In this document: piece by piece, positions 32,392 through 47,817 of the stretch | Layout of the letters: the number at the start of each line of letters is the position of its first letter | Position numbering within the stretch: position 1 is the stretch's first letter | From: Chloroflexota bacterium | GTDB lineage: Bacteria > Chloroflexota > Chloroflexia > QHBQ01 | Reading direction: 5' to 3' | NCBI GenBank assembly: GCA_043754535.1 | Contig: JAYUUN010000001.1 | Span: forward strand, 461-64,460 | DNA length: 64,000 bases | Program-made: the position numbers and the translations under genes | Notes under the pieces: generated by a model | Told to the model about the DNA's origin: nothing | Databases searched by the model: none | Seen by the model: the letters and a program-made list of their open reading frames with translations, nothing else

Positions 32392-35300
32392 CTAGCTGAT
32401 CTTGACCACTACGCAGTCGTTGGGGGCGAGGTCGCCAATTAGCTCGACGAAGGAGAGGCCTACGAGGCTGTTGCTCCAACTCGCCAGGTTCACTGTGCTG
32501 CCAAAGTAGCTGAATAGGGTCGCCACCTTGCCGCGCAGGTTGTGGCTGTCCAGCCGCTGTAGCTTGATGCGCCCGCGCTGGTGGTCGGGCAGGCGGTTGA
32601 GCAGGTAGAGCAGGTAGCCGTCATCAACCTTGTGGCTAACCACTTCGATGTCCAGGCTGGTCTGGTGGCGGCAGCCTACGCCGAGGGTAGTGACCAGGGC
32701 GCGCATGAAGCTGCGTAGCTCCGCCCGCTCCGACGTGGTGCTGGCGTAATACTGGCCGCTCATGTAGTGGCCGCCGAGGACGGTGCCGATCAAGGTGCTG
32801 CTGCCCTTGCCGACCGCTGTAGTGTAGGCCACAGTCTGACCTTTGTGCCTGAGCAGTGGTTGCGCCTGCCCATCCTGCACCGCCAGATAGTAGTCGCCGC
32901 GCACCTGGCCGCCGAACACGCTATCCAGCCTGACTGTGGGCAGTTTGGTGTTGGTGAAGACGAGGATCGGCTCGAAAGCATCCATGATGTGACCGCTGTA
33001 GGGGTGCTTCGCCAGGAGAGCCTTGCGCTGGCGGTTGTAGCCGAGCAGCCAGCGGCTAGCGAGGGCAGTCAACGCCTGCCGCAGTCCCAGCCAGCGTTCC
33101 TTGCTCACCACTTCGGGGTAGAGTTCGCCAGAGAGCAGGCCATTGCCTTGCAAGTCGTAGCGCAGCGGTTGGGGGAAGGTGACGAGGTGGCCACCAGCCT
33201 TCACGTATGCTAGCAGCTTCGCATATTCGGCGCGGTCAGCATAACCCTTGCTGGGGAAGAAGATCACCCGCTGCTGTTGCAACTCCTCTGCGCTCACGGT
33301 CGCCAGGTTGAGCGGGCGGGGGTTGTAGCCTGCGTTGAGTAGGACAGCGAAGGGGCCGTGCTGCCCATGAAAGTTACTGAAGTATTGTACTGGGTTCTGC
33401 AAGCCGACCAATGGCAGGTACTCAGCATAGCTGAAGCGATAGTTGGGCTGGTAGTAGGCGTAGCCAATCTCGTCGTAGATTTCTTTGGCGGCCAGCAGGT
33501 CGGCGGTATGCTGGCTGATGAAGCGGTGTAGCTGGCTGATCAGTTCGTAGCGCGGCCCTGGTTGCGCGTCCTTGTCCAGAATAGCCTGGTACTGGTAGAG
33601 GCTGCCGTCGATCTCCACCCCATCCATTGCGCTGTACATCACACTGCCACGCAAGCCGTGCGCCAGGCAGGCGACATAGCTCTGCAAAATCGCTGCGTCG
33701 CTGAGGTTGCTGCGGGGGTCGAACCAGCCTGAGCCAAGCTCGAAGGCCAACAGCGGCTTGTCAGGGCGTACCTCTGGCTTGACCACGGCGGGGTAGGTGC
33801 TGCCGCCCCAGGGAAAATCGGCTGCGTGGCTGGCGGCGGTCTGCTTGAGGTAGATGTCGATCCCCTGCCAATCGCCCACCGCCGCCTGTGTGTGTGGATC
33901 GCAGGGCGAGTGGTAGGTGAGGGCGGTATTGAGGATGATCGGCAGGGTGATGCCCGCCCCCTCGGCCACCCCGCGCAGCCAACGCAGGTAGTCAACTACA
34001 TAACCCTCGTAGAACTGCTGCCAGTCCAGAGCTTGGGCGGTTGTTGCGCCCTTCCTGGGTGGCTCCAACCCGGCTTCGCTGACGTACTTGCGGTGGTGTG
34101 CCTTGCCGACGCTAGCGAGGTCGCCATAGCGTTGCAGCAGCCAGGCGCGGTACTGGTCGCGGGTAGCGGGGTTGAAGTCCCACAGGCCGAGGCCGTTCTG
34201 CTGCACGAAGCCCGGCTCGTTGTCCAGTTGCCAGGCTACAACCGGTTTGTCCAGGTAGGGCTGGATCGCACTGGCTACCGCTGCAATCCAGGCCGCTACC
34301 TTCGCCCGATAGGTGGGGTCACCCATTGCGTGGCCGTACCAGAAGTCGCCGCGGATTAGCTTGCCTCCTGGCCCCCGCATTACTGTTTGCGGGTAGCGTT
34401 CGCCTAGCCAGAGTGGGTGGCCGAGACCGTTGTACTCGGCGTAGATGAAGGGGCCAGGCCGCGCGATGAACGGTAGCTCAAACTCGTGCAGCAAGTCTAG
34501 CAAGCCCAGCAGGTTGCGGCGCGGGTCACTCGTGCCAGCGAAATCCAGCACCCCCTCCTGCGGCTCGTGCCAGACCCAGGGGATGTAGCTGGCAATGGCA
34601 TTGAAGCCAGCCTCCTTCAGGCGGCGTAGGGCGGCGGGCCAGAGATTGGGCGCGATGCGGAAGTAGTGCAATTCGCCTGCCCGCAGGTAGAGGGGCTGCC
34701 CATCGAGGTTGAGGTGGTAGTTGCTGGCAGTCAGTCTGCTCATCGGTGTAGCCTCCGAGAATAAGCGGTTGGGGGTGATGGTGATGTTGAGGAAGCCGAA
34801 AGCGAGACCTTGTGGGTACGGATCGTCCCCCCCCGCTTGCCTAGGGGCTACTTCGGCTGGCTCCTCCGAGTAGAAGCTGAGGAGATTGCTGCCCGCCCGC
34901 AGGTTCAGGCTGAGGCTGATCTGCTGCTGGGCATTCTTGACCGCCAGGGCCGTTAGTGGTGCATCATTGAGGTTGAGGCGGATGTGGCGCATCTTTGCTG
35001 CCGCCTTAGCGACCTCGGCTGCCGAACCGTCGGCTAGCTTGAAGTAGGCGTAGATTGTGGTGGTTAGCTGCGCGCTGGTTGCTACTGGCGACCAGATGCT
35101 GAGACCAACTTCGCGCCCGCTCGTCCAGCGCGAAGGATTGTGGCCGTTCGGCTCGCTCTGGAAGGGGTACCAGCCGCCGCCCGCCAGTTCCACTGCCAGG
35201 GGTGGACTGGTGGGTGGGGGTGGCACGCGGTAGGTGAGAATGTCGTCGGCCTGCTGGGTGGGCGGCTGCTGCGGCCAGATTACGTTGATCAGGTCAAGCA

Positions 35301-37113
35301 ACTGGTTCTTCTCCACTTCGCCCTTTGGTGGCGGCATGGCCGCGAAGCAGGCCAGGTGAACGTTGACGTAGCGGATGCCATAGTAGTTGAGGATGGTCGC
35401 GCCGCTGAGGGCTAGGTTGCGGCTGATGATGTCGGCAGCGGCGGGTAGCTGGCCTTCTACAAACAACTGACGGATGGCGGGGGTGTCGGCGGCAAATGGG
35501 TAGTCGTACTTGCGCGAGATGTAGCCGCCCAGCACCTTCTGCTGATGCACGGTCTGGTAGAGTTCGTACTGTGGGGCGCAGTTGTTGGGCAATTCCAGTA
35601 CTGCGTAGCTGCCAGGCGCGTCTTGAGCCAACCTGTGGTAGAGGGCGGGACTGATAGTGCTGGTCAGGGGCTGACCGCCCGTTGGCACGCTCTCCACAAA
35701 GATTAGCAGGCAGAGGAGTAGTGGCAGCGCAACAGGAGCAAGGCGAGTAGTCACCCTACTGTTGCGCCCCCATGCGTGTACCGCTGCCAACAACGCTGCT
35801 GTACCAAGCGTCGCCAGCACAGCCACACAGAGCATCCCTGGCAGGCTGAAGCGACCAGCAACACGGGCGATGCTGCCTAGCGGGGTGAAGCGCAAGAGGT
35901 AGAAGGGGAGGGGCAGGCGGCTGTCCTTGCCGAAGGGGTGAAAGAGCGCGTCCACGTCCTGCGCGTCGGTGTTTGCGAGGCCACCTGGCCCCAGCTTGAG
36001 GTAGGGGCCGAGGGCGAGCAGGAAGCAGAATAGGCCACTGAGCGCGAAGAAGCTGGTGTAGCGGCGGCGCACACCCCCAGCCCTGACCCCAGCAACCACG
36101 CCGCCGACCGCTAGCAGCCCTGCGAACAGGCCAATGAACCAGCTAACCTCCGTTATGCCCAGTGCTGCATTGCCCCAGAGCAGTGATGGCCCTGGCTGCA
36201 CAAACTGGGGTAGAGCAGCAGCGTTGTAGACAATGAAGCTCTCATCGGCTAGCACCGGCTTGTTGGCCGCGAGTTCGCGCCCCATAGCCAGCAGCAGGGG
36301 GCTGACTACTAGCGCAAAGCCGCCGAGGGCAATAGCTGCCTGCCGTAGGATCAGCAGGCGGGCTGCCCGTCCCTCAGCAGCAGGGGCCATAGGTTCTGGG
36401 TGGGTGACCTGCCAGAGGATCAGCAGCCCAGCGAAGACGAGCAGGAACAGGCCATAGTACCAGGTGTGCTGCGAGGCAAGGATGATGAAGGCGGCAGCGA
36501 CCACGGCATCGCGCCAGCGGTAGGGTGGACGTAGGGCGCGTAGCAGGTAGAGCGCGCCGAAGGGGAGCCACTGGATGCTGATCAACTCCAACTGACCTAG
36601 GCGCACGAAGCTAGCTGCTGCTGCACAGTAGGCGAAGACCACGCCCGCTACCAACGCGGCGTAAGGGGAGGCGGCTATAGCAGGGCGGGGGTCGAGGGCA
36701 AGTACGTAGTTCGCTAGCAGGTATGCGCCCCAGGCTGCCAGGGTGAGGTTGAGGATCACTAGCAGGTTGAAGCTGGTGGTCAGGCTGAAGAACGCTTGCA
36801 GCGGGATGGCAAACAAGCCGCCAAGCTGGTTGAGGGCGTGGAAGCGTAGGCTGACCCCAGTGGGGTAGAACAGGTAGTCAGTCTGGAACGGGGACTGATG
36901 CAGATCGAGCAAGGCGTGGCGCGTCCACCAGAGGTTCCAGAGGTGCGCCCAGGCATCGCTGCCGCCCGCCAGGATCACGCTGTCACCCAGGTGCAGGACT
37001 AGCGGCCAGCTAAAGATGATAGTAAGCAGCAGATAGAAGGGTAGGGGAAGCAGATGTTGCCACCGGCTGGCTCTTGCTGTCTTGGGGCTGGAAGGGGCTG
37101 GCTGCTCAATCAT
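32392..37113 (-). CDS. 1573-aa fusion: N-terminal polytopic GT-C/YfhO-like membrane domain plus C-terminal GH35-type beta-galactosidase domain
   Basis: N-terminal ~600 aa with many TM segments (GGSDAWAHLWNLWW loop). GH35 blocks ASYIPWVWHEPQEGVLDFAG, RPGPFIYAEYNGLGHPLWL, WQLDNEPG, AFELGSGWFD. Later a GATase-like block VIFFPSKGYADRAEYAKLLAYVKAGGHLVTFPQ. Confidence 0.7.
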   Translation of the reverse strand: MIEQPAPSSPKTARASRWQHLLPLPFYLLLTIIFSWPLVLHLGDSVILAGGSDAWAHLWNLWWTRHALLDLHQSPFQTDYLFYPTGVSLRFHALNQLGGLFAIPLQAFFSLTTSFNLLVILNLTLAAWGAYLLANYVLALDPRPAIAASPYAALVAGVVFAYCAAAASFVRLGQLELISIQWLPFGALYLLRALRPPYRWRDAVVAAAFIILASQHTWYYGLFLLVFAGLLILWQVTHPEPMAPAAEGRAARLLILRQAAIALGGFALVVSPLLLAMGRELAANKPVLADESFIVYNAAALPQFVQPGPSLLWGNAALGITEVSWFIGLFAGLLAVGGVVAGVRAGGVRRRYTSFFALSGLFCFLLALGPYLKLGPGGLANTDAQDVDALFHPFGKDSRLPLPFYLLRFTPLGSIARVAGRFSLPGMLCVAVLATLGTAALLAAVHAWGRNSRVTTRLAPVALPLLLCLLIFVESVPTGGQPLTSTISPALYHRLAQDAPGSYAVLELPNNCAPQYELYQTVHQQKVLGGYISRKYDYPFAADTPAIRQLFVEGQLPAAADIISRNLALSGATILNYYGIRYVNVHLACFAAMPPPKGEVEKNQLLDLINVIWPQQPPTQQADDILTYRVPPPPTSPPLAVELAGGGWYPFQSEPNGHNPSRWTSGREVGLSIWSPVATSAQLTTTIYAYFKLADGSAAEVAKAAAKMRHIRLNLNDAPLTALAVKNAQQQISLSLNLRAGSNLLSFYSEEPAEVAPRQAGGDDPYPQGLAFGFLNITITPNRLFSEATPMSRLTASNYHLNLDGQPLYLRAGELHYFRIAPNLWPAALRRLKEAGFNAIASYIPWVWHEPQEGVLDFAGTSDPRRNLLGLLDLLHEFELPFIARPGPFIYAEYNGLGHPLWLGERYPQTVMRGPGGKLIRGDFWYGHAMGDPTYRAKVAAWIAAVASAIQPYLDKPVVAWQLDNEPGFVQQNGLGLWDFNPATRDQYRAWLLQRYGDLASVGKAHHRKYVSEAGLEPPRKGATTAQALDWQQFYEGYVVDYLRWLRGVAEGAGITLPIILNTALTYHSPCDPHTQAAVGDWQGIDIYLKQTAASHAADFPWGGSTYPAVVKPEVRPDKPLLAFELGSGWFDPRSNLSDAAILQSYVACLAHGLRGSVMYSAMDGVEIDGSLYQYQAILDKDAQPGPRYELISQLHRFISQHTADLLAAKEIYDEIGYAYYQPNYRFSYAEYLPLVGLQNPVQYFSNFHGQHGPFAVLLNAGYNPRPLNLATVSAEELQQQRVIFFPSKGYADRAEYAKLLAYVKAGGHLVTFPQPLRYDLQGNGLLSGELYPEVVSKERWLGLRQALTALASRWLLGYNRQRKALLAKHPYSGHIMDAFEPILVFTNTKLPTVRLDSVFGGQVRGDYYLAVQDGQAQPLLRHKGQTVAYTTAVGKGSSTLIGTVLGGHYMSGQYYASTTSERAELRSFMRALVTTLGVGCRHQTSLDIEVVSHKVDDGYLLYLLNRLPDHQRGRIKLQRLDSHNLRGKVATLFSYFGSTVNLASWSNSLVGLSFVELIGDLAPNDCVVVKIS

Positions 37114-43621: not shown

Positions 43622-44506
43622 TTACTGTACGCTAAACTTGCCAACGCCCTGGGTATCACTGCGGGTGCTGTAGAAGACCAGCGAGTGGTTGCCCTTCGGG
43701 AAGCCACTGTAGCGGACGCGAACCGCGTATCCGCCGCCGCCGAGGCCGTCTTCGTCACTTTCCGAGGCAACGCCGCTACCCAGGCCAATTACGCCCAGGC
43801 CAGTCGAGGGGTCGGTGTTCAGCCAGATTTGCAGCTTCTCACCAGGGACGAAGAAGCGGCCAGTAAAGAGGCTGCTGTTCGCATTGTTTCCAGTGCTGCC
43901 ACCAGCGACGGTCTCCATCTCTTGGATCGCGTCGGCGGTGCCGTCGGCGGTGCTGGTGGAGCCGGTGGTGGTGCTAATGCCGTTGGACTCGACGAAGCCG
44001 CCGCCCAGGACGTTATCGAAGATAGCCACAGCGCGGTCACGCAGTTCGAAGCCGCCAGTTGCATCAGCCTTGAGCTTAACGGTGATGTCCGCTGTTACCG
44101 AAGTGCCACCGCCGATGTTGCCGAAGTCGATCCCCTGGATGCCCTCGTCCTTGAGGTAGACGAACTGGGTATTGGGGCTGCTGCTCTTGGTGCCAGCAAC
44201 GCTATAGAACTGGGTCTGGATCGGCAGCAAAGCAATAACGCCACTGATTTCGCCCTTCTGCACGTTCTTGGCAATTATGCTTAGTACCATCGTGTCGCCC
44301 GCTGCGACGGTGATGTTCTTGTCGACGCGCAGAGAGAGCTGCAAGTAGCCCTCAGAGTGGCCGGTGAACTCCTCACGGGGATCTCCCGCACGGGGGGAGG
44401 GAACGGCCCCTTCGCCCTGGGCGAAGGCTGCACCACTGAACGTGAGAACGAGGGCCAGAGCGGAGATTGCCGCGAGGACGCGGGTCGTCCACTTGGGATT
44501 AGACAT
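43622..44506 (-). CDS. secreted/cell-surface protein (hypothetical)
   Basis: Signal peptide MSNPKWTTRVLAAISALALVLTFSGAAFAQG, a beta-sandwich-like N-domain, a Thr/Ser/Gly linker and a C-terminal domain. ATG 44506 follows GGAAAGGGGAAG. The ORF-track start is 44650. Confidence 0.6.
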   Translation of the reverse strand: MSNPKWTTRVLAAISALALVLTFSGAAFAQGEGAVPSPRAGDPREEFTGHSEGYLQLSLRVDKNITVAAGDTMVLSIIAKNVQKGEISGVIALLPIQTQFYSVAGTKSSSPNTQFVYLKDEGIQGIDFGNIGGGTSVTADITVKLKADATGGFELRDRAVAIFDNVLGGGFVESNGISTTTGSTSTADGTADAIQEMETVAGGSTGNNANSSLFTGRFFVPGEKLQIWLNTDPSTGLGVIGLGSGVASESDEDGLGGGGYAVRVRYSGFPKGNHSLVFYSTRSDTQGVGKFSVQ

Positions 44507-44691
44507 AACTAACTTCCCCTTTCCTTTGTAAAAAAGATGATCGCCAGTTAGGGCCGAACTGCGGACTGGCTCCTGATCTTGAGCAGAAGTCATGCCATCC
44601 CTCCTACACACAGCCGTAGCACCTGGCAAAGCAGGGAGCAGCGGGCGCAAAAGGCAGTTAGTTGGGCAACAGGCGTACTTGTGTCTGGCTC

Positions 44692-44720
44692 ATTATAGCA
44701 GTAAGCCATATGCTTGTCAA
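44692..44720 (-). promoter_or_regulatory. perfect consensus sigma70 promoter TTGACA-17-(TGC)TATAAT
   Basis: Minus strand TTGACA (44720-44715), 17-nt spacer, TGCTATAAT (44700-44692). This implies a ~180-nt leader to ATG 44506. Confidence 0.6.
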
Positions 44721-45006
44721 TAGAGGTAGGGCCAAAGTAACTTTTGTGGTCTCAGCATCTGCCGCCAGCAGATTGTCAGCGGTGCAAATGCCCACGCCTG
44801 CTGCACTACCAATCTGCTGGCTAGAGTGGTGTAGCAGCAGGCGTGGTCTGGGGTAGTGCAAACCTGAAGGCCACAGCTCTACCACTATCCAGTACCCGCC
44901 GCTTGCCGCCCAAGCCAGCAGTGGCGTATAATGGCAAGGCGCAACTGTGTTTTGTGCGACAAGCGCAGTTCAATGAAGAACAGCCACAAGAGGAGAATGC
45001 AAGATA

Positions 45007-47817
45007 ATGTGGGAGAGCTTTAGCAAGGAAGAGGTACTCGCCTACCGCCGCCGCCAGCGCGGTGTTATTGGGGTGCAGAGCAAGGTGCCAGTGCGCGATG
45101 CCTCGGCCCTCAGCCTGCTGTACACCCCAGGTGTGGCCGCTGTGAGCCTGGAGATCGCAGCCCACCCTGATGCCTCGTTCGACTACACCTGCCGGGGCAA
45201 CACGATTGCCTTGCTTAGCGACGGCTCGGCAATGCTCGAAGTGGGTAATGGGGGGGCGGATGCGGTGCTGCCCGTGCTGGAAGGCAAGTCGGTGATCTTC
45301 AAGACCTTCGCCGGAGTGGACGCGGTGCCGATTGCGATCCGCAGCCAGGACACGCAGCGGTTCATCAACACCGCCGTCAACTTGCTGCCGGGCTTCGGCG
45401 CGATCACCATCGAAGATGTTGCCTCACCGCGCGCCTTCACCATTGAACGCTGCTTGCAATCCGCCGCCGACGTGCCGGTTTTCCACAGCCACGCACATGG
45501 CACCGGGGTGGTCGTCCTTGCTGCTCTGCACAACTCGCTCAAGATCGTGGGTAAGCGGCTGGAAACAGCGAAGATCGTGATCAACGGGGCTGGGGCTGCC
45601 GGGATCGGTACGGCGATGCTGTTGCTCAAGGCGGGGGTTGACCCGCGCAACCTGATCGTCTGCGACCGCCTGGGCGCGATCCACGCCAACCGCTCGCAGC
45701 AGATGAACTGGGCCAAGTGGGAGTTGGCTAAGAGTGCCAACCGCCAGGAGCAGGCGGGCAAACTGGAGGAGATCATCCAGGGAGCCGACGTGCTGATCGG
45801 CCTGAGTGCGCCGAATGTGGTCACGGCGGAGATGATCCAGAGCATGGCTGCCGACCCCATCGTGTACGCTCTAGCCGTCCCCACCCCAGAGATCAGCGAG
45901 GAGGCCGCTCGCGCAGCCGGAGCGCGCATCGTCGCCACCGACCTCTCGCGCAGCCAAAACCAGCTTGATATGTCTCTGGTGCTGCCTGGCTTCCTACGCG
46001 GCCTGCTCGACACTCGCGCTCGCAATGTCAACAACCAGATGCTCCTGGCCGCCGCCGCTGCCCTTGCTGGCCTGGTCAGTGAGGAGGAGATGAGCAGGGG
46101 CGTGGTCATCCCCCAGGTGTTCGACTACCGGGTTGCCCCCCGCGTCGCCGCTGCTGTGGCCCGCGCCGCCAACGAAACCGGTGATTCGCGCTTGCAGATC
46201 GACCCGGAGGAGACTGCCCAGCGCACCTCTGCCTTCATCTACGAAGGCTCGCTCCCCCTACGTCCTAAGCGGGTGCGCGCCGATGGTGAAACGGCTGGCT
46301 CCTCCTTTAACCTCGAAGAAGGGGCAGCGGTAGATAGCAGCGGGCGCAGCTTCGCCGCTGAAGCCAACAATGGTAGTGAGGCTAAGGCGGGCAAGAAGGT
46401 ACGCTCAACGACCAGTTCGCCGACCGCTCTCGCCAGCGAAGCTGCCGCAGGCAACCGCCAACAGCAGGCCGCCACGCCCAGTGCGGAAGTGTTGGAAGCA
46501 GTTGGCCTTGACCGCAGCGGCCCCGCCCAGCCGAGTAGCCCCTCGGCCCCAGCTATCTCCGAAGAAGCGGTAGAATTGCACCGCCGCTACACGGGCGTGC
46601 TGGAAGTACGTAGCAAAATCCCGGTGAAGGATCAGCGGGTGCTGGAACTGTTCTACCTGCCGCCATACTCCTCCGCCCCCGCCGCCGCCATCGTCGCCGA
46701 CGCAATGGCCGTCTACGACTACACCACGAAGGGCAACCTGGTGGCGGTGATCACGGACGGTAGCGCAGTTCTCGGCCTCGGTAACATTGGCCCCCGCGCT
46801 GCTTTGCCAGTGATGGAAGGCAAGGCCGTGCTGTTCAACACCTTCGCGGGGGTGGAAGCCTTCCCCATCTGCGTTGCCACCCAGGACCCGGACGAGTTCG
46901 TAGCCGTGGTGAAGGACATCTCTGCCAACTTCGGTGGGGTGAACCTGGAGGACATTACCGCCCCGCGCTGCTTCGAGGTTGAGGAGCGGCTGCGTAAGGA
47001 ATGCGACATCCCGATCTTCCACGACGACCAGCACGGCACTGCTGTAGTGGTGCTTGCTGCCCTGACGGGGGCGTTGCGTGTGGTCGGCAAGCGGATCGAG
47101 GATGTGCGCGTGGTCTTTAATGGGGCTGGGGCGGCTGGTATCGCCTGCGCCAACCTGCTCTTTCAGGCTGGGGTGGGCGACGTGGTTATGTGTGACCGTA
47201 AGGGTACGCTCTATCAGGGTCGGGCCGAGGACATGAACCACTACAAGCAGATCATGGCGAACCGCAGCAACAAGAGCGGCATCAAGGGCAAGCTGGCGGA
47301 TGCGGTGCGCGGAGCAGACGTTTTCATCGGCCTCAGCCAGGCAGGGGCGTTGACCCAGGATATGGTACGTAGTATGGCTCCAGATGCTATCGTATTCGGC
47401 CTCGCCAATCCCGTGCCAGAAATCTGGCCGGAGGCGGCGAAGGCAGCCGGGGCGCGGGTGGTCGCCACAGGCCGCAGCGACCTCGCCAACCAAGTGAACA
47501 ACTCGCTAGCTTTCCCTGGTATCTTCCGTGGCGCATTGGACACCCGCGCCCGCCAGATCAACGACGAGATGAAGGTGGCCGCTGCCCACGCCATCGCCTC
47601 TCTGGTTGGCGACCGCGAACTAAATCCCGACTTCATCATCCCAAAGGCGACCGATTACCGGGTCGCCCCCAAGGTGGCGGGGGCGGTCGCTCGCAGCGCA
47701 ATGGCAACTGGCGAAGCGCGCATCACGGTTGACGCGGACGCGGTGGAAGCGAACACCCGCGCCTTTATCTACGAGGGCCGATTGGAGCGGATCGAGGCAA
47801 TCAGCAACGGAAAGTAG
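45007..47817 (+). CDS. tandem-duplicated NAD(P)-dependent malic enzyme (eroded N-terminal copy, linker, canonical C-terminal copy)
   Basis: Two collinear malic-enzyme modules. The C-terminal module has DGSAVLGLGNIGP, PVMEGKA, GGVNLEDITAPRCF, FHDDQHGTA, NGAGAAG. The N-terminal module has YTPGVA but FHSHAHGTG and LEVGNGGA. AGAGGAGAA before ATG 45007. Confidence 0.85.
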   Translation: MWESFSKEEVLAYRRRQRGVIGVQSKVPVRDASALSLLYTPGVAAVSLEIAAHPDASFDYTCRGNTIALLSDGSAMLEVGNGGADAVLPVLEGKSVIFKTFAGVDAVPIAIRSQDTQRFINTAVNLLPGFGAITIEDVASPRAFTIERCLQSAADVPVFHSHAHGTGVVVLAALHNSLKIVGKRLETAKIVINGAGAAGIGTAMLLLKAGVDPRNLIVCDRLGAIHANRSQQMNWAKWELAKSANRQEQAGKLEEIIQGADVLIGLSAPNVVTAEMIQSMAADPIVYALAVPTPEISEEAARAAGARIVATDLSRSQNQLDMSLVLPGFLRGLLDTRARNVNNQMLLAAAAALAGLVSEEEMSRGVVIPQVFDYRVAPRVAAAVARAANETGDSRLQIDPEETAQRTSAFIYEGSLPLRPKRVRADGETAGSSFNLEEGAAVDSSGRSFAAEANNGSEAKAGKKVRSTTSSPTALASEAAAGNRQQQAATPSAEVLEAVGLDRSGPAQPSSPSAPAISEEAVELHRRYTGVLEVRSKIPVKDQRVLELFYLPPYSSAPAAAIVADAMAVYDYTTKGNLVAVITDGSAVLGLGNIGPRAALPVMEGKAVLFNTFAGVEAFPICVATQDPDEFVAVVKDISANFGGVNLEDITAPRCFEVEERLRKECDIPIFHDDQHGTAVVVLAALTGALRVVGKRIEDVRVVFNGAGAAGIACANLLFQAGVGDVVMCDRKGTLYQGRAEDMNHYKQIMANRSNKSGIKGKLADAVRGADVFIGLSQAGALTQDMVRSMAPDAIVFGLANPVPEIWPEAAKAAGARVVATGRSDLANQVNNSLAFPGIFRGALDTRARQINDEMKVAAAHAIASLVGDRELNPDFIIPKATDYRVAPKVAGAVARSAMATGEARITVDADAVEANTRAFIYEGRLERIEAISNGK

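What the first reader, a model, noticed from the sequence alone, without database searches (positions are those of the whole stretch)
45007..47817. Malic enzyme duplicated in tandem within one polypeptide, with an eroded N-terminal copy
One 936-codon ORF holds two complete malic-enzyme modules (aa ~1-415 and ~520-936). They are joined by a ~100-aa Ser/Ala/Gly/Pro-rich linker (nt ~46255-46555). Both modules end with the same xAFIYEGxL tail, so this is an internal duplication and not the ME-PTA fusion known from MaeB. The C-terminal module keeps the canonical motifs: ITDGSAVLGLGNIGP, PVMEGKAVLF, FGGVNLEDITAPRCF, IFHDDQHGTAVV, NGAGAAG and NQVNNSLAFPGIFRGALD. The N-terminal module instead reads LSDGSAMLEVGNGGA, PVLEGKSVIF, FGAITIEDVASPRAF, VFHSHAHGTGVV and SQNQLDMSLVLPGFLRGLLD. 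The acidic DD pair that supplies a divalent-metal ligand in malic enzymes is therefore SH, and the Gly-rich loop is eroded. Conversely, the YTPGVA segment is canonical in the N module but reads YLPPYSS in the C module. Malic enzymes act as dimers or tetramers, so a covalently linked dead-plus-live pair could be a built-in regulatory or scaffolding subunit. I am not aware of a described ME-ME tandem.
Basis: partly seen in the sequence, partly recalled or inferred. Interest (0 to 1): 0.7.

Follow-up and report, generated by a model that had tools for sequence, protein, structure and literature searches.

The report
Fused double malic enzyme, one shared site
This gene fuses two copies of a malic enzyme into one protein, and the sequence pattern indicates that the two halves build a single working active site between them (the first half donates the catalytic tyrosine, the second supplies the rest); this design occurs in several bacterial phyla, and I found no paper describing it.

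Summary
ORF 45007-47817 (+) encodes 936 aa with two complete small-type malic-enzyme (ME) modules that are 47% identical. They are joined by a roughly 100-aa disordered linker, and there is no PTA domain. It is not an assembly artefact: the same protein occurs on about 11 independent contigs, and five lineages keep the linker in frame.

It is not unique. At least 119 protein clusters carry the fusion, as do 25 further species genomes spanning NC10, Chloroflexota, Desulfobacterota, Nitrospinota, Vampirovibrionales and Brocadiales. The usual linker is 12 aa.

The "dead plus live" reading needs revising. Published structures show that small ME dimers are entangled and that each catalytic Tyr (YTPGV motif) is donated to the partner's site. 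In 144 tandems:
- the N module always keeps YTPGV but has lost the catalytic-body residues (DD→S/N-H, ANP→AVP, NN→D-I/M);
- the C module keeps the body (143/144) but always has an altered Tyr helix (Y-L-P-P).

So there is one canonical composite site (N Tyr plus C body) and one remodelled site that still looks able to bind NADP(H). More divergent relatives keep only a YTPGV-bearing stub fused to a full module that lacks any Tyr helix.

I rate it a new variant of a known kind. Biochemical tests are still needed.

The parts
44903..44932 (+). Promoter-like site (TTGCCG-18-TATAAT) upstream of the gene
   Evidence: Consensus scan. This is only a pattern match; 2 sites were found against 0.8 expected in the region.
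44990..44995 (+). GAGGAG ribosome-binding site, 11 nt before the ATG
   Evidence: Read directly from the sequence.
45007..47817 (+). 936-codon ORF (stop codon included) encoding the tandem ME-ME protein
   Evidence: The identical protein is in public collections on about 11 contigs.
45007..46257 (+). N module (aa 1-417): full small-ME fold, Tyr donor, degenerate catalytic body
   Evidence: Pfam malic plus Malic_M; AF2 pLDDT mostly above 90; the N clade is monophyletic.
45100..45138 (+). N-module Tyr helix ASALSLLYTPGVA (Y39 at 45121-45123), canonical
   Evidence: Y-T-P-G-V is invariant in 144/144 tandem N modules. It is homologous to MaeB Y52 and EhME Y65, which are donated in trans.
45487..45492 (+). 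N-module S161-H162 in place of the Asp-Asp pair (MaeB D174/D175)
   Evidence: the N family has N 88%/S 3% and H 69% at these positions; single MEs have D 96% and D 100%.
45586..45603 (+). N-module GAGAAG dinucleotide-binding motif, retained
   Evidence: G/G/G conserved at 100/100/99% in N modules. R229 and K237 (MaeB R242/K250, NADP 2'-phosphate contacts) are at 100%.
45877..45879 (+). N-module V291 in place of the ANP asparagine (MaeB N300, nicotinamide contact)
   Evidence: N family V 59%, N only 6%; C family and single MEs N 98-100%.
45967..45972 (+). N-module D321-M322 in place of the NQVNN Asn-Asn pair
46258..46557 (+). Linker of about 100 aa (aa 418-517): low complexity, predicted disordered, specific to this clade
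   Evidence: pLDDT below 50 for most of residues 431-514. The family median linker is 12 aa; about 100 aa is seen only in P0001-P0004, and the partial P0011 shows the same long linker. It stays in frame with indels in five lineages and has conserved islands.
46558..47814 (+). C module (aa 518-936): canonical catalytic body, altered Tyr helix
   Evidence: Pfam; 51% identity to 5CEE with Foldseek TM 0.97; body residues KEDDDNNN in 143/144.
46633..46674 (+). C-module altered Tyr helix QRVLELFYLPPYSS (Y550; one-residue insertion; T→L)
   Evidence: All 144 tandem C modules carry the insertion. +1 is L 81% (T/S in single MEs), the inserted residue is P 91%, and Gly is kept in only 49%.
46822..46824 (+). 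C-module catalytic Lys K606 (MaeB K107)
   Evidence: 100% in C modules; mapped through the 6ZN4 alignment and the paper's numbering.
46948..46953 (+). C-module E648-D649 (MaeB E149/D150; metal-site and proton-donor residues)
   Evidence: 100% in C modules.
47023..47028 (+). C-module D673-D674 (MaeB D174/D175)
   Evidence: 100% in C modules.
47407..47409 (+). C-module N801 (ANP motif; MaeB N300)
   Evidence: 100% in C modules.
47497..47502 (+). C-module N831-N832 (NQVNN)
   Evidence: 99% in C modules.

Best explanation
The gene encodes a covalently fused, asymmetric malic-enzyme pseudo-dimer. The two modules fold against each other as the two protomers of a small prokaryotic ME dimer do. In that class the dimer is entangled, and each active site is completed by the catalytic Tyr (YTPGV motif) of the OTHER protomer.

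Here the N module supplies an intact Tyr helix (Y39) to the intact catalytic body of the C module (K606, E648/D649, D673/D674, N801, N831/N832, plus an NADP-type Rossmann site). That gives one canonical malate-decarboxylating site per polypeptide.

The reciprocal site combines the C module's altered helix (Y550-L-P-P) with the N module's altered body (S161-H162, V291, D321-M322). It can no longer carry out the canonical reaction. It does keep the dinucleotide-binding signature, so it most likely binds NADP(H) or a related ligand in a structural or regulatory role.

What is shown and what is inferred:
- Shown here: the architecture, its spread, the complementary conservation pattern, the single origin, and the stub relatives.
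- Taken from published structures of homologues: trans donation of the Tyr.
- Inferred: that the fused modules adopt the same entangled arrangement, that only one site is active, and that the second site binds nucleotide.
For: (1) There are two full ME modules and no PTA domain.

(2) Published structures of homologues show trans donation. [quoted passage not shown] Our C module is 51% identical to 5CEE and 6ZN4.

(3) In 144 tandems the N helix is Y-T-PGV in 144/144, the C body is KEDDDNNN in 143/144, every C helix has the insertion, and no N body exceeds 5 of 8 canonical residues. Fifty single-module MEs keep both features.

(4) An unbiased scan of the 116 columns conserved in single MEs shows N losing 14, all within active-site motifs, and C losing 3, one of them in the Tyr helix.

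(5) In at least 13 divergent representatives (P0159, P0161, P0163-166, P0172-174, P0191, P0194, P0204, P0275) an N-terminal stub has lost most or all of the K/ED/DD body and the Rossmann motif (a few keep the Lys or a partial acidic pair) but keeps Y-T/S-PGV. In the same proteins the full C module has a canonical or nearly canonical body (P0174 reads ND at the NN pair) and no Tyr helix at all. P0175 shows the same split in reverse order. Single modules fused to unrelated domains keep both features. Pfam architecture is malic-malic-Malic_M for 8 of the 9 stub-type proteins scanned.

(6) The N and C clades are each monophyletic (54/54), so the fusion arose once and both halves have been kept since.

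(7) The AF2 model has pLDDT 88.6 and pTM 0.88 for the whole chain despite a disordered stretch of about 80 aa, which implies confident packing between the modules.

(8) The N module retains GxGxxG at 100/100/99% and R229/K237 at 100%, which is higher than in the C modules or in single MEs.
Against: No coordinates were available, so I could not measure the Y39-K606 distance or confirm the entangled topology in the model. The trans arrangement therefore rests on homology and on the conservation pattern.

The second site is not wrecked. Y550 is kept in 94% of C modules, K94 in 90% of N modules and E136/D137 in about 90%, and His could act as a metal ligand. A different catalytic activity at that site is therefore not excluded.

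Covariation between the C-helix variant and the N-body variant follows subclades, so it cannot be separated from shared ancestry.

No member of the family has been characterised biochemically, as far as I could find.
Confidence: 0.72

Rival explanations
1. One reading: each module has its own site. The N module is a dead pseudoenzyme acting only as scaffold or regulator. The C module is a self-sufficient enzyme that tolerates its altered YLPP helix.
For: The N body lacks the Asp pair and three Asn residues, while the C body is fully canonical. Y550 is retained in 94% of C modules.
Against: Structures of homologues at about 50% identity place the Tyr in the partner's site. Under a cis model no site in any of the 144 tandems would be fully canonical. 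YTPGV is invariant in an otherwise 'dead' module. The stub relatives have C modules with no Tyr helix at all, so those modules cannot be self-sufficient.
Confidence: 0.08
2. Both composite sites are catalytic. The remodelled site (C helix plus N body) has acquired a different chemistry or substrate, for example another 2-hydroxy or 2-oxo acid or a different metal, making the protein bifunctional.
For: The substitutions recur and are conserved rather than random (N/S-H, V, D-I/M). Tyr, Lys, Glu/Asp and the NADP-binding residues persist at the second site. The N module is under purifying selection as strong as the C module among close relatives.
Against: Second-site residues are clearly less conserved (59-90%) than those of the canonical site (about 100%) and differ between subclades. 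The Asp that positions the catalytic Lys and one metal ligand are gone. In related lineages the whole second site has been deleted and only the Tyr-donating stub remains, which suggests the second site is dispensable.
Confidence: 0.15
3. Artefact, or really two proteins: a sequencing or assembly error removed a stop between two adjacent paralogous genes, or the long linker is cleaved (or contains an internal start) so that two separate subunits are produced.
For: The long low-complexity linker is unusual; the family norm is 12 aa. Some database entries of 414 aa look like stand-alone C modules.
Against: The 936-aa protein and three near-identical variants occur on about 11 contigs from NCBI, JGI, ENA and Logan assemblies. 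Five lineages about 80% identical in the modules keep the frame across the linker despite 8-13 indel columns. At least 119 clusters have the fusion with a 12-aa linker. None of the 80 genome loci has separate adjacent N-type and C-type genes. One 414-aa entry was checked and is a contig-end truncation with the N-module frame open upstream. Post-translational cleavage cannot be tested here.
Confidence: 0.03

Closest known systems
Small ('minimal') prokaryotic malic enzymes, e.g. Candidatus Phytoplasma AYWB ME (PDB 5CEE), Pyrococcus PH1275 (1WW8/2DVM), Thermotoga TM0542 (1VL6), Entamoeba EhME (3NV9)
   Same: Each module has the same fold and size of about 400 aa. For the C module: E=3e-123 and 51% identity to 5CEE, Foldseek TM 0.97, rmsd 1.2 A. 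These enzymes form an entangled dimer in which YTPGV is donated in trans.
   Different: Those are homodimers of separate identical chains with two equivalent sites. Here the two protomers are fused in one chain and have diverged to 47% identity, so only one composite site remains canonical.
Hybrid malic enzymes MaeB / Tme / Dme (ME domain plus PTA-like regulatory domain)
   Same: A small-type ME catalytic domain fused in one polypeptide of about 85-100 kDa to a second, non-catalytic homologue of an enzyme. The ME domain dimer is domain-swapped with a trans Tyr. The NADP-type residues (R242/K250 equivalents) are present.
   Different: There is no PTA domain. The appended domain is a second ME module placed N-terminally, and it is predicted to contribute a catalytic residue rather than sense acetyl-CoA. 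The MaeB 'hook' insert was not examined.
Pseudo-heterodimers with one active and one degenerate composite site: mammalian adenylyl cyclase C1/C2, and heterodimeric ABC transporters with a degenerate nucleotide-binding site (from my own knowledge; not tested here)
   Same: The logic is the same. Two homologous domains form two head-to-tail composite sites. Complementary motif losses in the two halves disable one site while the other stays canonical, and the degenerate site often keeps ligand binding and becomes regulatory.
   Different: The folds and chemistry are unrelated. A regulatory role for the degenerate site is established in those systems and is only inferred here.

Membership tests
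Small prokaryotic malic enzyme (Pfam malic PF00390 + Malic_M PF03949) | Both Pfam domains above the gathering score | tested here: met
   N module alone: Malic_M 87.2 bits and malic 53.0 bits. C module alone: 95.3 and 81.6 bits. The cut-offs are 23.5 and 23.1.
Small prokaryotic malic enzyme | Complete catalytic set within one composite site: Tyr (YTPGV), Lys (EGK), Glu-Asp (LED), Asp-Asp (HDD), Asn (ANP), Asn-Asn (NQVNN) | tested here: met
   The set is complete only for the combination of N-module Tyr helix and C-module body. Taken module by module, it is not met for either half: N lacks DD, N and NN, and C has YLPP instead of YTPG.
Small prokaryotic malic enzyme | Entangled two-fold dimer with the Tyr donated in trans | tested here: inconclusive
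   The AF2 whole-chain pTM of 0.88 and the module TM of 0.97 to 5CEE are consistent with this. Coordinates and PAE were not available, so the Y39-K606 contact was not measured.
Small prokaryotic malic enzyme | NAD(P)-dependent oxidative decarboxylation of malate | not testable with these tools
   This needs an enzyme assay. I found no characterised member of the tandem family in the literature.
Hybrid malic enzyme (MaeB type) | C-terminal phosphotransacetylase-like domain | tested here: not met
   There is no PTA hit in the full-length protein or any segment. Residues after the first ME module are a linker plus a second ME module.
Large (SfcA / eukaryotic, about 60 kDa) malic enzyme | Close sequence or structure match, including the tetramerisation and N-terminal domains; Tyr acting in cis | tested here: not met
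   Only partial matches at E of about 1e-20 (sequence) and 24-25% identity, with rmsd 6-7 A by Foldseek.
Pseudoenzyme (applied to the N module) | Loss of residues essential for the ancestral reaction, with the fold retained under purifying selection | tested here: met
   D→S, D→H, N→V and NN→DM; pLDDT above 90; 80-82% identity among close relatives, equal to the C module. Caveat: the module is predicted to supply a catalytic Tyr to the other site, so it is not functionally dead.

The most novel reading that the evidence does not exclude
Tandem ME-ME proteins would form a fourth, undescribed structural class of prokaryotic malic enzymes, alongside the minimal, large and ME-PTA hybrid classes. 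In this class an entangled homodimer has been fixed as a single-chain asymmetric enzyme. The degenerate second site has become a dedicated NADP(H) or metabolite sensing (allosteric) site, or a new catalytic site. The family would also preserve a visible series of reduction: symmetric dimer, then tandem with a remodelled site, then a Tyr-donor stub plus one full module, including a variant in reverse order.
Probability: 0.3. Interest if true: 0.75.

Novelty: new variant of a known kind. Interest (0 to 1): 0.6.

Why it matters
Malic enzymes sit at the malate/pyruvate node and are widely used in metabolic engineering and CO2-fixation work. The two bacterial ME structure papers I read mention only minimal (about 40 kDa) and larger multidomain or hybrid forms.

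A widespread single-chain pseudo-heterodimer would matter in several ways:
- It would add an architecture that automatic annotation currently hides under the label 'NADP-dependent malic enzyme'.
- It provides a natural experiment confirming that the catalytic Tyr works in trans in this class.
- It gives a clean model for how symmetric, site-sharing oligomers evolve into asymmetric enzymes with one catalytic site and one possibly regulatory site.
- It offers a ready-made single-chain scaffold for engineering.

The hypothesis can be tested directly with four point mutants and two truncations.

Tried and rejected
(1) Assembly join or lost stop: rejected.

(2) Split two-gene versions: the 414-aa 'NADP-dependent malic enzyme' entries in cluster 9 looked like stand-alone C modules. 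The one I checked is a contig-end truncation with the N-module frame open upstream. None of the 80 genome loci has adjacent N-type and C-type genes.

(3) Correlating the C-helix state with the N-body state within the family, as a test of trans pairing: uninformative. The insertion is universal, and the remaining covariation follows subclades.

(4) Measuring Tyr-Lys distances in the AF2 model: not possible, because coordinates are not exposed.

(5) Foldseek against the PDB matches only one module per chain, so it says nothing about the arrangement between modules.

(6) Conserved gene neighbourhood: none. The commonest shared neighbour is an ABC-F-like ATPase in 5 of 24 loci. In this window the gene appears monocistronic.

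(7) Rooting the duplication: the midpoint-rooted NJ tree does not resolve whether N and C are sisters. C is closer to single MEs (52%) than to N (48%). That fits either accelerated N evolution or a fusion of older paralogues.

(8) Literature searches for a described tandem ME found nothing. The library holds open-access papers only, so absence is not proof.
Full report
OBSERVATION. The ORF 45007..47817 (+) is real: 936 codons and one terminal stop. Pfam finds the malic-enzyme N-terminal domain (PF00390) and the NAD-binding domain (PF03949) twice each. Each half passes both gathering thresholds on its own, the piece between them matches nothing, and there is no PTA domain. The halves align end to end at 47% identity, E=7e-128. 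One correction: NGAGAAG occurs in both modules. The gene has a GAGGAG ribosome-binding site 11 nt upstream of the ATG and its own promoter-like site. It has no obvious operon partners.

NOT AN ARTEFACT. The identical 936-aa protein and three near-identical variants are recorded on about 11 contigs from NCBI, JGI/IMG, ENA and Logan assemblies. Five related lineages (P0002, P0124, P0003, P0004 and the partial P0011, which is labelled Candidatus Chloroheliales) are about 80% identical in both modules. They keep the reading frame through the linker despite 8-13 indel columns. The linker is 53-57% identical among them and contains conserved islands: AGSxFNLExGAxVDSxGR, TSSxTALASE and DRSGPxxP. AlphaFold2, run with a 72-sequence alignment, gives mean pLDDT 88.6 and pTM 0.88. 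Most of residues 431-514, plus the first four residues, fall below pLDDT 50.

NOT UNIQUE. The best 120 hits of the word-indexed search are all ME-ME tandems of 833-936 aa: 119 have two full modules and one is partial. The median linker is 12 aa. A linker of about 100 aa occurs only in this clade. A scan of species-representative genomes with an N-module profile kept 80 loci. Of these, 25 besides our own carry the fusion in one ORF, 4 are tandems cut by a contig end, and the rest are ordinary single MEs. Hosts include NC10, Chloroflexota (Thermomicrobiales, Sphaerobacteraceae, Chloroflexia, Ardenticatenaceae, Promineifilaceae), Desulfobaccales, Desulfonema, Nitrospinae, Vampirovibrionales and Candidatus Tharpella. 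Source names from other hits add Methylomirabilis, Desulfobacterium and Brocadiales. The sources simply call these proteins 'NADP-dependent malic enzyme' or 'malate dehydrogenase (oxaloacetate-decarboxylating)'. In a neighbour-joining tree of 54 dereplicated tandems and 54 single-module sequences (four of which proved to be contig-truncated tandem halves), the N modules and the C modules each form one clade (54/54). The only intruders are those four truncated pieces. The fusion therefore arose once.

THE KEY PATTERN. I mapped published catalytic residues through the 6ZN4 alignment and the MaeB paper's numbering: Y52, K107, E149/D150, D174/D175, N300, R242/K250. I then tabulated them in 144 tandems and in the single-module set.
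- Single MEs keep everything at about 96-100%.
- Tandem C modules keep the body at 99-100% (KEDDDNNN in 143/144). All of them have an altered Tyr helix: Y 94%, +1 Leu instead of Thr/Ser, an inserted Pro (91%), and Gly kept in only 49%.
- Tandem N modules keep Y-T-P-G-V in 144/144, but their body is changed: D174→N 88%/S, D175→H 69%, N300→V 59%, NN→D 76% and I 60%.
- Ours reads S161-H162, V291 and D321-M322.

An unbiased scan supports this. Of 116 columns at least 90% conserved in single MEs, N modules lose 14, all inside the active-site motifs. C modules lose 3, one of them in the Tyr helix.

WHY THE PATTERN MAKES SENSE. In small prokaryotic MEs the dimer is entangled and the sites are composite. 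[quoted passage not shown] For Entamoeba ME, the YTPGV motif is swapped between monomers and Lys120 NZ (chain B) lies 2.8 A from Tyr65 OH (chain A). [quoted passage not shown] Our C module is 51% identical to 5CEE and 6ZN4, and the model superposes on 5CEE with TM 0.97.

If the fused modules pack like those protomers, every tandem has exactly one fully canonical site (N Tyr plus C body) and one site degenerate in both of its halves. That packing is an inference, supported by the whole-chain pTM of 0.88. Under a cis model, no site in any of the 144 proteins would be canonical.

INDEPENDENT SUPPORT FROM MORE DIVERGENT RELATIVES. The exhaustive HMMER search of 1.84 billion cluster representatives returned at least 13 representatives in which the N-terminal part is only a stub: P0159, P0161, P0163-P0166, P0172-P0174, P0191, P0194, P0204 and P0275.
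- Pfam architecture is malic-malic-Malic_M for 8 of the 9 stub-type proteins scanned.
- The stub has lost most or all of the K/ED/DD body and the Rossmann motif, although a few stubs keep the Lys or a partial acidic pair. It still reads (L/V/I)-Y-T/S-P-G-V.
- The full C module has a canonical or nearly canonical body (P0174 reads ND at the NN pair) but no Tyr helix at all, e.g. LLEDASDVA, SVLSAENIA, FIFSWENLD.
- P0175 shows the same division of labour in the reverse order.
- Single modules fused to unrelated N-terminal domains (P0168, P0176, P0182, P0245, P0269, P0274) keep both the Tyr motif and the body.

This is what trans donation predicts. It is hard to reconcile with a self-sufficient C module.

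THE SECOND SITE. It is remodelled rather than decayed. N modules are only slightly less conserved than C modules across phyla (53.8% vs 61.2% mean pairwise identity), and equally conserved among close relatives. They keep GxGxxG at 100/100/99% and the NADP 2'-phosphate contacts (R229, K237) at 100%, which is more than C modules or single MEs do. They have lost the Asp that positions the catalytic Lys, one metal ligand, the nicotinamide-contacting Asn and the Asn pair. My reading, which is an inference, is a non-catalytic NADP(H) or nucleotide-binding site with a structural or regulatory role. A new catalytic function cannot be excluded, because Tyr (94%), Lys (90%) and Glu/Asp (about 90%) persist. 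The stub relatives show that this site is dispensable in other lineages.

COMPARISON WITH WHAT IS KNOWN. Each module is a member of the small prokaryotic ME family. The protein is not a MaeB-type hybrid (no PTA domain) and not a large or eukaryotic-type ME. The two bacterial ME structure papers I read mention only minimal (about 40 kDa) and larger multidomain or hybrid forms. Phrase searches for a two-domain, fused, duplicated or double malic enzyme returned no matching paper, and the Chlorohelix papers do not mention malic enzyme. Functionally, the closest analogies are pseudo-heterodimers with one active and one degenerate composite site, such as adenylyl cyclase C1/C2 and ABC transporters with a degenerate nucleotide site. 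Those analogies come from my own knowledge.

VERDICT. The gene is a long-linker member of a widespread, apparently undescribed family of single-chain asymmetric malic enzymes. The best-supported mechanism is one composite active site per chain, with the N module donating the catalytic Tyr. It is a new variant of a known kind, of moderate to high interest, and can be tested with a handful of mutants. What remains uncertain is the physical confirmation of the trans contact, the role of the second site, and the function of the clade-specific linker with its conserved islands.

Noticed in passing
window 46258-46557 (aa 418-517): The disordered linker of about 100 aa contains short islands conserved across five lineages (AGSxFNLExGAxVDSxGR, TSSxTALASE, DRSGPxxP), while the rest varies with indels. 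They could be short linear motifs, such as interaction or processing sites. Other family members manage with a 12-aa linker.
   Followed up: partly
P0159, P0161, P0163-P0166, P0172-P0174, P0191, P0194, P0204, P0275: A further group of ME relatives (about 660-812 aa) consists of an N-terminal ME stub that keeps YTPGV, followed by a full module that lacks any Tyr helix. Pfam architecture is malic-malic-Malic_M. P0172-P0174 and P0183 have about 190 unassigned residues between the stub and the full module.
   Followed up: partly
P0175 (848 aa): This is a reverse-order version. The canonical catalytic body is N-terminal, and a degenerate C-terminal module keeps LAYTPGVGR but has lost K, ED, DD and the Rossmann glycines. 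It may be an independent origin of the same division of labour.
   Followed up: no
P0157 (860 aa): This tandem representative has no Tyr in either helix (LVSAPGIVE and LIATPG-VS), and its C body has A at the ANP position and QN for NN. The one-canonical-site model does not explain it. It may be a non-ME derivative.
   Followed up: no
L082:1-1306 (GCA_030947205.1, JALYXG010000278.1) and cluster 9: Several NCBI entries of 414 aa named 'NADP-dependent malic enzyme' from Chloroflexota or Thermomicrobiales MAGs belong to this cluster. The one checked (L082) is the C module of a tandem cut by a contig end and called from an internal Met. The N-module frame is open right up to the contig edge.
   Followed up: yes
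window 43622-44650 (-) and 44692-44720 (-): The divergent upstream gene encodes a 323-342-aa protein with no Pfam hit and an apparent signal or hydrophobic N-terminus. It is preceded by a perfect sigma-70 consensus (TTGACA-17-TATAAT with an extended TG).
   Followed up: no
window 45183-46109 (-) and 46405-47493 (-): Long antisense ORFs (308 and 362 aa) lie inside the ME gene. Their Ala/Arg/Ser/Pro-rich translations are typical of spurious ORFs in DNA of about 64% G+C. I do not treat them as genes.
   Followed up: partly
window 32392-37113 (-): A 1573-aa ORF with glycoside hydrolase 35/42 Pfam hits (seen in the gene table). It is unusually large and was not examined.
   Followed up: no
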